DNA of 64,000 bases. It comes from Octopus vulgaris (lineage: Eukaryota). Every line of letters starts with the position of its first letter. Position 1 is the stretch's first letter. Positions 17,089 through 60,482 of this stretch are shown in pieces. The position numbers and the translations under genes were made by a program. The DNA is taken from NCBI GenBank assembly GCA_951406725.2, contig OX597822.1, forward strand, positions 48,794,001-48,858,000. Direction: 5' to 3'. The notes under the pieces are model-generated. The model saw only the letters and a list, made by a program, of their open reading frames with translations. It searched no databases and was not told the DNA's origin.

Positions 17089-17134
17089 TCTTACAGCTGT
17101 TTCAGGGACACAAAAGACATCCCATCATCAGAGA
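17089..17134 (-). ncRNA. Minimal type-I hammerhead ribozyme motif (weak stem I)
   Basis: Minus strand reads UCU CUGAUGA uGGGA..UCCCu GAAA CAGCUG UA AGA: full core, palindromic stem III, GUA triplet. Confidence 0.6.
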
Positions 17135-17364
17135 GAATTTGAGAGAGTTAAAAAGATATATATATATATAGAGAGAGAGAAGGAGATTAATGTTTGTCTT
17201 TTATGTTGTGTTAGAAGAATTTAACATGAAACTAAAGAGAATTACTTAATACTTTTCGAAAGGTGCATATTTATTATCCTTTTTCAAAAAGAGAGGTGAC
17301 AGTGACTTCGAAGTGTTAATATAATCACCTCTGTTAGACCTCACCCCTCCTCTTGTAAAAGTAT

Positions 17365-17795
17365 TCTTTTATTCTTTTATTTCTTTCAGTCATTTGACTG
17401 TGGCCATGATGGAGCACTGTCTTTAGTTGAACAAATCGACCCCAGAACATATTCTTCGTAAGCCTAGTACTTATTCTATCGGTCTCTTTGCTGAACTGTT
17501 AAGCTATGGGGACATAAACACACCAGCATCAGTTGTCAAGCGATGTTGGGGGGAGACAAACACAGACACACAAACACACACACGCACACACACACACACA
17601 CACACATACACATATATATATCTATGTATATATGCGACAGGCTTCTTTCAGTTTCCATCTACCAAGTCCACTCATAAAGGCTTTGGTTGGCCCAAAGCTA
17701 TAGTAGAAGACACTTGCCCAAGGTGCCATGCAGTGGGACTGGACCTGGAACCATGTGGTTATTAAGCAAGCTACTTACCACACAGCCACTCCTGT
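17365..17795 (-). mobile_element. SINE family A
   Basis: Same head, core and tail as the 8556 and 51773 copies. Confidence 0.85.
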
Positions 17796-19654
17796 GCCTA
17801 TATATATATATATATATATATATATCAAAGCAAGCATGTGTTTATGTAATGTAGGGAGTATGGAGATGTAGTAAATAAATCTACCATCTAACAAGCTGTG
17901 CTTTTCGGGTGTGGCTTCTCAAACTCATATATGCACACACACACACACACACATATGTGTATATTCCTATATACTTTATTTGTTGGGTAACAAGATTACC
18001 ATTTGTTTCATCCAAGATGGATGTGAGTACTAACAGTCTTATGGTTCAGGCTACATAATTGCTGAGAATTCTTGGCATGAAACCAGTGGTAGCCTTGTTA
18101 ATATTCAAATAATGAACATTTATTGATCAATGTGATGTTCAGCACTCATTCTCACTCTCTGATATTGGTGTGAGTGTGTGTGTGTGTGTGTGTGTGTGTG
18201 TGTGTGTGTGTGTGTCTGTGCACGTGCATGCATGTGTGTAATACATTTAATTTTTTTTTTTTGCTGAAGGTGGCTAGCTGGCAGAAACATTATGATGCCA
18301 GGCGAAATGCTTAGTGGTATTTCATCTGCCGTTAATGTTCTGAGTTCAAATTCTACCGAGGTCGACTTTGCCTTTCATACACACATACATATACATATAT
18401 ATACATATATATATATATATATACACACATACATACATACACACACACACACACATATATATATATATATATATATATCATCATCATCATCATCGTCCGT
18501 TCTCCATGCTAGCATTGGTTGGACTAATATATATGCTATATATATTATATATTTTATATATATATATATATATATATATCAGATGGGCTTCTTTCAGTTT
18601 CTGCCTACCAAATCTACTCACAAAGCTTTTGTCAGCCCAAGGCTATAGTAGAAGACACTTGGCCAAAGTGCCACACAGTGGGACTGAACCCCAGAACCAT
18701 GTGGTTGGGAAGCAAGTTTCTTACCACACAGCCATATATGTTTATATATATGTGTGTGTATGTATGTGTGTTTGTATGTGCATCTGCATAGATATATAGA
18801 TATATGATAAATATATGTACATATATATATGTATACGTACTATCATCATATATATACTTGTACACCCTATATGTACAGTGTTGCGTGTGTAGGTATATGT
18901 GAAGGGTGTGGGTGGTTCTGCCTTTATCATTTTCTCCTGAACCCACTTCACAGGCTCCACATCCACTTCCTGTTCTTCATGTTCCTGTAAGTCCTAAATC
19001 TCCACCCCACACCTCCTTACCTATTATATCCACCCATGTTAGTGTGGGGGGGGGGGGGCAGAAAGAAGAGTGAGATACAGTGGTTAGACAGGAGACAGGG
19101 GATAGACAGACACTACCACCGCTGCCACCACCACCATCACCACCAGCAACACCAGCAGCACCACCACCACCACCACTGCTACTGCTGCCGCCACCTCTGC
19201 CTCGCCGCCTCTGCCTCGCTGCCTCTGCTTCATCACAATCATAACAGTATTTACATATGATTTCCCCTTTAGACACCAATTGCCATTTCCCTAACAACCA
19301 CCACCACAACTACCACTGGCAACCACCATGTCTGTACTGCTTCCCATACATCAAAAAAATATCGGTGCTTGCACCATCACTACCACCACCACCACCACCA
19401 CTTCTCTACATTCACACACACACATACACACATGCACACGCACAACTACAAATGTCCTTTCTTTTTAAAGTTTAGTACTCGATCTATTGGTCCGTTTTTT
19501 TTGGCGGAACTGCTAAATTCTGGGAGTGTAAACACACCAACGCTAGTGCCGAGGGACAGAACACACACACAAAGACAGATACACAATGATGTGTATATAA
19601 AGAGAAAACGAGAGAGCGCGGGAGAGAGAGAGAAGTTTTCCACAAAAGCTGTCT

Positions 19655-20390
19655 TAGAACAATCTGCAGTTATTCACTAAAAGACAGTGTCTAATGTCGA
19701 CCTGTCTAGCAAGTGTCAGATTGGTAGAACTGAGAGCTTCCTTATGCAGTTTCAATTGTGCTGAGCTGGCCATGTTGTCAGAGTGAATGACGCAAGAATA
19801 TCCAAAGTCCTCATGTACAGCCAGCTTGACAGTGGGCTCAGGAATGTTAGTCGACCATAGCCCAGATATAAGGACCAGCTGAAGAGTAGCCCCTCCACAG
19901 TTAATATAGCTCACAATACGCTTGAGCAAACAGCTTTAGAGTGAAAAAATGGAGATTATCATGTCAAAATGGTATAAGAGACAGTTTCAACCAGCATTAA
20001 CAGGCTTAGGGTTCAAGGAAAAGGAGAAAAGCAACTGTAAATATATCTATTTCTTTACTACCCACAAGGGGCTAAAAACAGAGAGGACAAACAAGGACAG
20101 ACAAACGGATTAAGTCGATTACATATCGACCCCAGTGTGTAACTGGTACTTAATTTATCGACCCCAAAAGGATGAAAGGCAAAGCCGACCTCGGCGGAAT
20201 TTGGACTCTGAACGTAGCGGCAGACGAAATACTGCTAAACATTTCGCCCGGCGTGCTAACGTTTCTGCCAGCTCGCCACCTTATATATAACTGTAAATAT
20301 ACCATCTGTACTGACCTGTAATCCACATACTTGTAACATCTGTAGGCTTCTTTGCAAATCGTTGGTGGGACTCAACTGTCACATTTGATA
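19655..20390 (+). mobile_element. Decayed RTE LINE 3' fragment interrupted by a SINE
   Basis: QL.*AGHVVRVNDARISKVLMYSQLDSGLRNVSRP*PRYKDQLK; after the SINE, HTCNICRLLCKSLVGLNCH (zinc-finger remnant). Confidence 0.75.
20046..20288 (-). mobile_element. SINE family B, full length, 13-bp TSD
   Basis: AACTGTAAATATA at 20033-20045 and 20289-20301; tail tgtcctctctgtttttagccccttgtgggtagtaaagaaatag. Confidence 0.9.
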
Positions 20391-21026
20391 TAAGCATTAT
20401 GTCTGACAAAAAAGGTGTGCATTGTTGGATCATCATATGTTGAAACCAACAGTAAGAGTCCATCATCTATCAATATATATATATAGCGCCGCCTCGACTG
20501 GCACCAACCGATCATGGCCATTGCCAGCTTCGCCTGGCACCTGTGCTGGTGGCACGTAAAAAGCACCCACTACACTCACAGAGTGGTTGGTGTTAGGAAG
20601 GGCATCCAGCTGTAGAAACATTGCCTGATCAGATTGGGCCTGGTGCAGCCTCCTGCCTTCCCAGACCCCAGTCGAACCGTCCAACCCATGCTAGCATGGA
20701 AAGCGGACATTAAACAATGATGATGATGATGATGATGATATATAGGTTGAAAATATGTGGAAAACATAAAACGTGGAAGAGAAATGCCTTTGTTTCACAT
20801 AGTTTAATATCTCTTCAGAAGGAAATTCTTTTTCTTTTAAATATATACATATTTTATGGATGTAGTGATATCCAACCAGTTTTTGCTATTTAAATTAGCT
20901 TTTCAAGGGACATTGTGAAGTAAGCAATTCTTGTGGCAAAGGGGTCTCACTATTTTGGATGCTTGAAAAACAAGAATGAGTCTAGAAAGTGGACCAAGGG
21001 AGGTAACAGGTAACATAATTTTGCCA

Positions 21027-58961: not shown

Positions 58962-59058
58962 ATATCAAGACTTGTGAATATGGAATGTGGAAGACCATTG
59001 CCTGTGCCTTGCAAGTGAAACCATGCCATGGCCAGCCGACACCCCTCTCCATCTGCCG
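58962..59058 (+). CDS. RECK: RECK exon (CRD): DIKTCEYGMWKTIACALQVKPCHGQPTPLSICR
   Basis: gttacag acceptor and GTAAGT donor; 97 nt, phase 1 to 2; resembles DIKKCQPEMWKAIACSLQIKPCH. Confidence 0.96.
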
Positions 59059-59817
59059 GTAAGTAAAAACTTAAATATACACAGCCTTTCACATCAGAAG
59101 GGCAGCTAAAAGTAAACACTCCTTACCTAGACTCAACAAGGGTACCTCCAAGTAGTCACTCGACCTGCTAGAAATAGCAACCAAATTTTCCACTGTCGAG
59201 GTCAACTTTATTTACCATCCTTCTAGAGAAGGGGAGGGGGGCATCAACAAAATAAAATACCAGTTATTTCATCTGTTCAACATTTATTTAATTTATATTT
59301 TTGTTTCTCCATGTTTCTTTTGCTTGTGTAACAGAACAGAAACAACATGGATAGAGGTTAGAGTATGGCGAGAAGTACAGGTACTTTGAAAGCAAACTTA
59401 CCATATTTGGTGTCAGATAAGATGCACTTTTTCCTTCAGAATCACCCTAGGTCCTAATATTGATGAGTACAAGTCCTTTTCTCAAATGTAATTCTTGAGA
59501 ACTGAAGATGCAAAATTACCTCATTTTGTCTTACTCATTTTACCCCACCTAAATTTGTCTTTTAATATACTCAAAGAGAACGGTGATAATTTTCTGAAAT
59601 AAAGTTCTGAATATGTCATAGTGTTTGCTTTTAACACGTTTAGAGAAGGTCATTTGCTTGGCGGATATAGTTTTTGTAAGGCAGGGAACTTTTGTAAAAA
59701 AGCAAAAAAAGTATTTTTCCTGAAAGTCAAAAATGCAGTAAATATTTACTCGTATACCCCCACCCCGTCAATTCTGCCCTCTTTCATTTTCTCCCCAATT
59801 TTATTACCGTTTCACAG

Positions 59818-59957
59818 AGAAGATTGTGAATACATCTTAAGGAAATGCATAAACTACAAGCAGCTACCACGTGCAAAAAACGTCTCCATTTTATGTAACC
59901 CACTGCCGTCACGCATGGATAGTCACCAGTCATGCATATCAATCAGGAAATATTCCA
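59818..59957 (+). CDS. RECK: RECK exon (CRD end): EDCEYILRKCINYKQLPRAKNVSILCNPLPSRMDSHQSCISIRKYS
   Basis: ttcacag acceptor and GTGAGT donor; 140 nt, phase 2 to 1; resembles SDCVEILKKC...SICELLSP...CIPLDTYL. Confidence 0.93.
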
Positions 59958-60387
59958 GTGAGTATTATTCACAGATAGTTTTTCTGTTTTGTCTATTGGA
60001 TTGTTTTTCTGTGTTTTTTTTTTTACTGTTATTACTAATTTTTTTTTTAATATATCTCTTATCCCACTAATTCATGTGTGTGGGTTGGGTGGGATGGGAT
60101 TGCAAAGATTTGACAGCATTAAGGCTGTTGCTAAGAGAGCACAAATTAATTTCTTTGTTATACTCGTATCTATCTATCTATCTATCTATCTATCTATCTA
60201 TCTATCTATCTATCTATCTATCTATCTATATATATATATATATATATATATATATATATATATATATATAAAATATAAGGAATGGCTATAATAGGACATT
60301 CGACTCACTAGAAAGAGCAGCCAAACTCGAACTGCTAAAAGTTGTAATTCTGAAATTGAAAGAGAAATAACACGTTTACCCCTTTCA

Positions 60388-60482
60388 TCTCTGGACTATG
60401 CATAGTTTCGGCAAACTTTGGTAAACAAATTAATTAAATTAAATTAAATTTATTTACAACTGGCGTGCCTTGTCAGCAGAGA
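60388..60482 (-). ncRNA. Hammerhead motif with single core lesion (CUGACAA, G8A)
   Basis: tctctg CTGACAA ggca...tgcc GAAA ctatgcatag TC cagaga: 6-bp stem I, extended stem II, GUC triplet. Confidence 0.65.

What the first reader, a model, noticed from the sequence alone, without database searches (positions are those of the whole stretch)
17089..60482. At least nine hammerhead-ribozyme motifs in RECK introns, the gene that hosts the amniote HH9 ribozyme
Seen: CUGANGA/stem II/GAAA/palindromic stem III/NUH/stem I motifs at 17089(-), 25079(-), 29542(-), 29780(+), 33804(+), 52294(-), 52382(+), 52757(-) and 60388(-). They have unrelated stems, so they come from about seven different families. Known: Penelope-like elements carry minimal type-I hammerheads with palindromic stem III (Cervera & de la Pena 2014), and amniote RECK has the ultraconserved intronic hammerhead HH9 (de la Pena & Garcia-Robles 2010). 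Inference: most likely independent Penelope insertions in a repeat-rich genome. Even so, this is a test case for whether RECK introns repeatedly retain or domesticate self-cleaving RNAs.
Basis: partly seen in the sequence, partly recalled or inferred. Interest (0 to 1): 0.85.

Follow-up and report, generated by a model that had tools for sequence, protein, structure and literature searches.

The report
Transposon hammerhead relics in octopus RECK
The nine self-cutting-RNA-like motifs in the introns of this octopus gene are really there, but each is a copy of a common repeat, such motifs occur tens of thousands of times across the genome, and they are likely leftovers of Penelope-type jumping genes with no special tie to this gene.

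Summary
All nine motifs are real and lie in introns of octopus RECK (+ strand). Five have an intact hammerhead core, two carry copy-specific core damage, two carry family-wide variant cores (U6; G3-C8). They come from seven repeat families and seven insertion events, since two pairs are inverted duplicates. Three search patterns alone match 52,636 times genome-wide (controls 4,346). The window is dense (5 matches against 1.2 expected), the rest of RECK is not (3 against 2.5), and the gene's excess fades against equally (TA)n-rich background (ratio 1.2, p 0.37). Only three motifs are in RECK's sense, and each is predicted to be locked in a long hairpin. The vertebrate intron thought to hold HH9 has no intron at the matching octopus position. 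Verdict: ordinary Penelope-type minimal hammerheads; RECK link not supported. Conservation in other octopods and cleavage are untested. Side finding: a family of about 11,600 copies with a swapped G3-C8 core pair, which I found only as a laboratory mutant in the papers I could read; this scan noted G3-C8 motifs before in two other genomes.

The parts
2783..63817 (+). RECK gene, 12 coding exons inside the window (gene continues on both sides; about 195 kb in all)
   Evidence: tblastn of octopod RECK proteins
30076..30157 (+). 82-nt RECK exon that runs unbroken across the position of the vertebrate intron inferred to be intron 6 (HH9 host)
   Evidence: human exon numbering partly recalled
17089..17134 (-). 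Minimal type I hammerhead motif, intact core, stem I 3 bp, A17; antisense to RECK; family with at least 39 other copies at 84-89% identity
25078..25175 (-). Minimal type I motif, intact core, long stem II, A17; antisense; family copies up to 91% identical
29479..29888 (.). One inverted-repeat insertion (arms about 83% identical) holding the 29542 and 29780 motifs
29542..29587 (-). Minimal motif, intact core, extra base 9.1, no loop III, U17; antisense; family copies up to 98% identical
29780..29825 (+). Same family, sense to RECK, core damaged (G12A)
33113..35302 (-). About 2.2-kb Helitron-like composite element (5' TC, 3' hairpin and CTAG) that carries the 33804 motif as a passenger
   Evidence: Helitron end rules recalled
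33674..33932 (.). Inverted 5'-truncated pair of the G3-C8 family
33804..33854 (+). Minimal motif with family-wide G3-C8 core swap, U17; this copy has a G.G mismatch in stem II
52184..52553 (.). One inverted-repeat insertion (arms 98% identical) holding the 52294 and 52382 motifs
52294..52354 (-). Minimal motif, intact core, A17; antisense arm
52382..52442 (+). The only sense motif with an intact standard core; identical copies exist elsewhere (279 family matches); predicted to be fully paired to its antisense arm
52757..52792 (-). Minimal motif with family-wide U6 core variant, U17; antisense; 16,332 family matches
60388..60482 (-). Motif with 12-nt palindromic stem III, C17; antisense; this copy has G8A where fetched relatives keep G8; sits in a repeat of about 420 bp (60231-60652)

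Best explanation
The nine motifs are minimal type I hammerhead motifs belonging to seven multi-copy repeat families, likely the truncated 3' ends of Penelope-like retroelements or their non-autonomous derivatives, which likely landed in the (TA)n-rich introns of RECK without selection for that gene. Mechanism: in a source element the RNA is transcribed as tandem copies; two motifs would pair through their palindromic stem III, fold as a dimer and cut after position 17 to process the element's RNA (inferred from published Penelope hammerheads, not tested here). An RT/GIY-YIG protein would insert short, often inverted copies at AT-rich microsatellites (inferred). Once inserted the copies are likely inert and decaying: six are antisense to RECK, and the three sense copies are each the 3' arm of a long inverted repeat predicted to pair with the arm made before it.
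For: Shown: motifs far above chance. Every family is multi-copy: (40 of 40 scored candidates reported as matches in each, counting the window copy). Genome counts 22,729, 18,316 and 11,591 against controls 2,563, 1,524 and 259. Fixed 3' ends, a tail on one arm only, (TA)n flanks and inverted truncated pairs match the Penelope layout in PMC8557442 (passages). The genome holds RT plus C-terminal GIY-YIG frames of 781 aa, and 12 of 29 plus 8 of 20 GIY-YIG loci have a sense minimal hammerhead downstream. Density: RECK outside the window 3 matches against 2.46 expected; 5 of 177 64-kb tiles on contig C1 are as dense as the window; ratio 1.2, p 0.37 against TA-rich background. Sense 7 of 16. Sense motifs paired outside themselves with mean probability 1.0, 0.94, 0.96. 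Copy-specific damage at 29780, 60388, 33804. 33804 rides in an element whose junction recurs 598 times.
Against: None of the seven window families was tied to an RT/GIY-YIG frame; the hammerheads found behind such frames belong to other families, apart from one 52757-family copy that may be chance. Before the (TA)n adjustment RECK is about twice background: 14 events in 195 kb against 20 in 550 kb, p 0.041, and 8 against 3.67, p 0.034, with 3 of 58 tiles as dense. The TA-rich split was chosen after seeing the data, the tracts may partly be a product of insertion, and the background stretches were round-number picks, not annotated introns. Conservation in other octopods is untested. No antisense transcript was excluded.
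Confidence: 0.9

Rival explanations
1. RECK introns are a recurrent site where hammerheads are retained and used in RECK pre-mRNA processing, convergently with amniote HH9.
For: About twofold raw excess over background; one sense motif has an intact core (52382); amniote RECK does carry a conserved active hammerhead (PMC3088659, PMC12842694, passages).
Against: Excess confined to the window that was chosen for it and absent after matching (TA)n content; no sense bias; 52382 has identical copies elsewhere and is predicted to sit in a hairpin of about 180 bp; no Rfam HH9 match; the matching vertebrate intron position is exonic in octopus.
Confidence: 0.03
2. The families are tandem non-LTR retrozymes or other short hammerhead-bearing repeats that replicate through small circular RNAs, rather than plain truncations of autonomous Penelope elements.
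For: No window family was linked to an ORF; the G3-C8 family has a fairly constant 5' end about 13 nt before stem I; the 29542 family forms one array of about 220-bp period on contig C2. Molluscs carry such elements (PMC7229834, passages).
Against: Window copies are single or inverted, not tandem; minimal palindromic stem III, tails and inverted truncation are Penelope marks. A preprint argues animal retrozymes are themselves Penelope derivatives (10.64898/2026.07.22.740005, abstract and passages), so this differs little from the best explanation.
Confidence: 0.25
3. The motifs are chance matches in AT-rich repetitive DNA.
For: Rfam finds no hammerhead; no compensatory change within the G3-C8 family.
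Against: Shuffles give almost none; reversed-pattern controls are 9 to 45 times lower; unrelated stems surround one core; in 814 kb the 3-8 pair is Watson-Crick in 19 hits and mismatched in 2.
Confidence: 0.01

Closest known systems
Minimal type I hammerheads (min-HHR) of Penelope-like elements (Cervera and de la Pena 2014, PMC4209133)
   Same: Type I topology, stem I 3-8 bp, extra base after position 9, palindromic stem III with or without loop, frequent U17 and A17, many unrelated families per genome, mostly single copies, opposite-strand pairs 100-700 bp apart, U3-A8 variant present; molluscan examples are in its supplement.
   Different: Octopus is not among the passages I saw; counts here (over 50,000) exceed the 2,000-9,000 quoted for schistosome, coelacanth and frog, though with different search rules; two large families have G3-C8 or U6 cores not seen in the parts I read.
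[quoted passage not shown]
   Same: Type I hammerhead core inside an intron of a RECK orthologue; HH9 is thought to derive from a retroelement.
   Different: HH9 is a single locus conserved across birds and mammals, active as a monomer, in intron 6. These are multi-copy repeats, mostly antisense, minimal, without an Rfam match, and the matching intron position is exonic in octopus.
Non-LTR retrozymes (Cervera and de la Pena 2020, PMC7229834)
   Same: Short non-coding hammerhead-bearing repeats of 200-400 bp in molluscs and other animals.
   Different: Retrozymes are tandem arrays with canonical type I motifs and abundant circular RNAs; the window copies are dispersed or inverted and minimal.
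Engineered C3G/G8C hammerhead double mutant (passages in PMC11167929, PMC8495972, PMC3884650)
   Same: Same swapped 3-8 pair; partly restores cleavage, also in a Penelope-like element's hammerhead.
   Different: There it is a laboratory rescue mutant; here it is the natural state of a family of about 11,600 genomic matches, with activity untested.

Membership tests
Penelope-type minimal type I hammerhead | Core CUGANGA / GAAA / NUH with stems I and II | tested here: met
   Met in 5 of 9 copies; 2 damaged copies belong to families with the standard core; 2 have family-wide variant cores
Penelope-type minimal type I hammerhead | Palindromic, short or loopless stem III | tested here: met
   9 of 9
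Penelope-type minimal type I hammerhead | Multi-copy families, dispersed, often as inverted truncated pairs with tail and microsatellite flanks | tested here: met
   All seven families multi-copy; layout
Penelope-type minimal type I hammerhead | Located in the terminal repeat of an RT plus GIY-YIG element | tested here: inconclusive
   Met for other families in this genome (12 of 29 and 8 of 20 loci); not shown for the seven window families
Penelope-type minimal type I hammerhead | Self-cleavage as dimer or with protein help | not testable with these tools
   Co-folding gives an intermolecular stem III for 17089, 25078, 52294/52382 and 60388 but not the hammerhead fold for 29542, 29780, 33804, 52757; no assay
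Amniote RECK HH9 | Match to the Rfam HH9 model | tested here: not met
   No gathering-score match in the window; no hammerhead family at E up to 10 in 52180-52560 or 29470-29900
Amniote RECK HH9 | Lies in the intron orthologous to human RECK intron 6 | tested here: not met
   A tilapia isoform lacks a 16-residue block whose 3' edge falls inside the unbroken 82-nt octopus exon 30076-30157; equating that edge with human intron 6 rests on exon counting from PMC12842694 and on recalled exon sizes
Amniote RECK HH9 | Single-locus motif in the sense of the pre-mRNA | tested here: not met
   All families multi-copy; 3 of 9 sense, each inside a long inverted repeat
Amniote RECK HH9 | Conserved at the orthologous site across related species | not tested
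   No reads or contigs of other species were laid on the window; no related genome is held
Non-LTR retrozyme | Tandem head-to-tail units each with a hammerhead | tested here: not met
   No tandem hammerhead units in the window; one array of the 29542 family elsewhere

The most novel reading that the evidence does not exclude
The octopus genome amplified a Penelope-type family of about 11,600 copies whose hammerhead naturally carries the swapped G3-C8 core pair, known to me only as a laboratory rescue mutant, and a second family of over 16,000 copies with U at core position 6; both still cleave in their source elements, so the natural hammerhead core is wider than standard search descriptors assume and these descriptors miss tens of thousands of animal ribozymes.
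Probability: 0.3. Interest if true: 0.5.

Novelty: new member of a known kind. Interest (0 to 1): 0.25.

Why it matters
As a RECK story it matters little: with more than 50,000 such motifs in the genome, a gene of 195 kb is expected to hold several, so co-occurrence with the HH9 host gene is a coincidence to be expected. What remains useful is the octopus repertoire: very large families with C3-G8, U3-A8 and G3-C8 cores side by side give natural test cases for the 3-8 tertiary pair and for whether Penelope-type elements need a working ribozyme at all. Had the RECK reading held, it would have been convergent domestication of a ribozyme in one gene in amniotes and cephalopods.

Tried and rejected
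Rfam scans: no family at gathering score; the E-value scan showed only the best 150 of 391 matches, none a hammerhead, nearly all microRNA models on microsatellites; two short scans found only hairpin artefacts. First descriptor missed motifs with the extra base after position 9 and was replaced. Linking window families to an autonomous element: 50 GIY-YIG loci examined (30, of which L123 was dropped from the count as not Penelope-like by my judgement; 20); no convincing link; no RT frame beside four fetched 60388-family copies. Covariation within the G3-C8 family: 0 of 15 pairs with a change on both sides among 25 distinct rows, score not above shuffles, and the rows were picked by a pattern covering the core: no support, as expected for a young family. 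Sequencing runs: 24 listed, no RNA holder listed; nothing was laid, so neither expression nor presence in other species was examined. Papers not held: PMC2933863 (HH9) and PMC5785218 (Lunse et al., Penelope-associated variants), which may already list G3-C8 or U6 cores. The first 35 residues of protein P0001 hit many repeats, so the true first RECK exon was not located and the gene span is approximate.
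Full report
OBSERVATION. A pairing-aware descriptor (type I topology, optional extra base after position 9) recovers eight of the nine motifs at the stated coordinates: five with an intact core and three with one core mismatch; 100 dinucleotide shuffles give a mean of 0.0 strict palindromic hits and 0.02 one-mismatch hits. 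The ninth, 33804-33854 (+), has 7 bp of stem I, a palindromic stem III and the core GUGAACA, a G3-C8 swap of the usual C3-G8 pair, with a G.G mismatch in stem II. Rfam gives no match at gathering score and no hammerhead family at E up to 10 in the two short regions tested.

HOST GENE. An exon at 57565-57741 is identical to a protein named RECK-like from Octopus by its source; twelve exons map on the + strand, and the gene spans about 195 kb of contig C9. The window lies wholly inside RECK. Six of the nine motifs are antisense to the pre-mRNA.

WHAT EACH COPY IS. All seven families are repeats. BLAST of the 29542, 60388, 25078 and 17089 motifs returned matches for all 40 scored candidates, the window copy included, best other copies 98, 96, 91 and 89% identical. 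Exact patterns gave 279 matches for the 52382 family, some identical to the window copy, 16,332 for the 52757 family and 11,591 for the G3-C8 class (control 259). 29542/29780 and 52292/52382 are the arms of single inverted insertions, so nine motifs are seven events. The G12A of 29780 departs from its family; 60388 has A8 where the five fetched loci other than the window's own all have G8. The 33804 copy sits in a 2.2-kb element (33113-35302) that is 97% identical to a copy on contig C1, has Helitron-like ends (end rules recalled), and whose internal junction recurs 598 times: this motif reached RECK as a passenger.

LINK TO PENELOPE-LIKE ELEMENTS. Thirty-one G3-C8 copies show two fixed 3' ends, a tail on one arm, (TA)n flanks and inverted truncated pairs, the layout described in PMC8557442 (passages). 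PMC4209133 (parts 1-2 of 4 read, supplement passages; one supplement file not searchable) describes this motif class, the extra base after position 9, opposite-strand pairs and molluscan examples, and reports no cleavage as monomer and low activity as dimer. [quoted passage not shown] A sense minimal hammerhead follows 12 of 29 GIY-YIG loci (L123 dropped) and 8 of 20 further loci. These are mostly other families; no window family was convincingly tied to a frame, so Penelope origin of the window copies is inferred from anatomy.

IS RECK ENRICHED? Three whole-genome patterns give 22,729, 18,316 and 11,591 matches (controls 2,563, 1,524, 259; some overlap between the first two), 18.8 per Mb. The window has 5 against 1.2 expected (Poisson p 0.008), but counts are overdispersed and 5 of 177 tiles of 64 kb on the first 11.3 Mb of contig C1 have 5 or more; RECK outside the window has 3 against 2.46; the whole gene 8 against 3.67, matched by 3 of 58 tiles. 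With the descriptor, RECK has 14 events in 195 kb against 20 in 55 background stretches of 10 kb (ratio 1.97, p 0.041); outside the window the ratio is 1.68, p 0.155. In the background, motif count rises with (TA)n tract density (Spearman 0.48, p 0.0002; 19 of 21 motifs in the 30 TA-richer stretches). RECK introns have about 21 tracts per 10 kb against a mean of 12.8, and against the TA-rich stretches the ratio is 1.2, p 0.37. Limits: the split was post hoc, the stretches are unannotated round-number picks, and the window was itself chosen for its density. Orientation is unbiased: 7 of 16 sense.

COULD THE SENSE COPIES ACT? Each of the three is the downstream arm of an inverted repeat. Folding predicts long hairpins (-284, -255, -192 kcal/mol) in which motif bases pair outside the motif with mean probability 1.0, 0.94 and 0.96. 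Only 52382 has an intact standard core. This is a prediction, not an assay.

RELATION TO HH9. HH9 is in human RECK intron 6; exon 8 holds residue 168 and exons 1-8 encode 212 residues (PMC12842694, passages). It is conserved in birds and mammals and cleaves in vitro (PMC3088659, passages and section 8; PMC6155905 and PMC10761166, passages). A tilapia RECK isoform lacks exactly 16 residues, marking a vertebrate cassette exon whose 3' edge falls inside the unbroken 82-nt octopus exon 30076-30157. Counting octopus exon borders up to the one equivalent to residue 212 leaves octopus one intron short of the human eight-exon count, and recalled human exon sizes (48 and 34 nt for exons 6 and 7) sum to 82. 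The HH9 intron therefore likely has no octopus counterpart; the numbering is partly recalled. The original HH9 paper is not held.

VARIANT CORES. With positions 3 and 8 left free, 95 of the first 100 listed matches (7,054 in all) are G3-C8, five are single changes and none is C3-G8. Two subfamilies differ in loop II while keeping stems and core, but the alignment shows no compensatory change (0 of 15 pairs). In the 52757 family 96 of the first 100 matches have U6 while position 7 takes all four bases (39 U, 23 A, 21 C, 13 G, counted by hand). In 814 kb, hits with a Watson-Crick 3-8 pair number 19 and mismatched ones 2. C3G/G8C partly restores activity in the laboratory, also in a Penelope-type hammerhead that cut only with its protein (PMC11167929, PMC8495972, PMC3884650, passages); natural U3-A8 and a weak A6C are published. 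Searches for a natural G3-C8 core or octopus hammerheads found none, but Lunse et al. 2017 is not held, the preprint's supplements are closed (10.64898/2026.07.22.740005, part 1 of 5 and passages), and two earlier notes of this scan describe G3-C8 motifs behind Penelope-like RT genes in other genomes (unchecked). PMC6765202 and PMC7229834 were seen as passages.

NOT DONE. No other cephalopod DNA was compared, no RNA data were examined (no RNA holder listed), and cleavage cannot be tested here.

VERDICT. Real motifs of a known class, seven routine insertions in a large microsatellite-rich gene. The RECK-specific reading is not supported (about 0.03). The variant-core families are the only part worth an experiment.

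Noticed in passing
window 33113-35302 (-): Helitron-like composite element of about 2.2 kb with a captured G3-C8 inverted pair and a 107-bp tandem array (34306-34790); its junction recurs 598 times, some copies spaced about 2.1-2.2 kb as if in tandem.
   Followed up: partly
genome-wide; window 33804-33854: G3-C8 core family of about 11,600 matches with two loop II subfamilies.
   Followed up: yes
genome-wide; window 52757-52792: Family of over 16,000 matches with U at core position 6 and free position 7.
   Followed up: partly
L138:1744-4089 and many GIY-YIG hits: Young Penelope-like family with 781-aa open RT-GIY-YIG frames; related loci are followed by a U3-A8 minimal hammerhead.
   Followed up: partly
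L033, L077, L122, L140, L143, L146, L150, L154 and RECK upstream introns: Recurring U4C cores (CCGACGA, CCGAAGA) in two families, one directly behind GIY-YIG frames.
   Followed up: no
G000:C2:2734417-2735847: Head-to-tail array of the 29542 family with a period of about 220 bp, retrozyme-like.
   Followed up: no
window 29479-29888, 33674-33932, 52184-52553: Near-perfect hairpins of 120-180 bp predicted in RECK pre-mRNA; possible A-to-I editing substrates (cephalopod editing recalled, not tested).
   Followed up: no
window 59800-59956: RECK exon that matches proteins P0002 and P0003 but not P0001, whose model appears to use another stretch here.
   Followed up: no
window 10088-11422, 13935-15206, 21634-22461, 4900-5319, 56191-57057: Frames that look by eye like LINE-type retrotransposon fragments; not scanned against a library.
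   Followed up: no
window 21205-21404, 32701-32899, about 44800-46470: Copies of a repeat with 62-63-bp internal tandem units.
   Followed up: no
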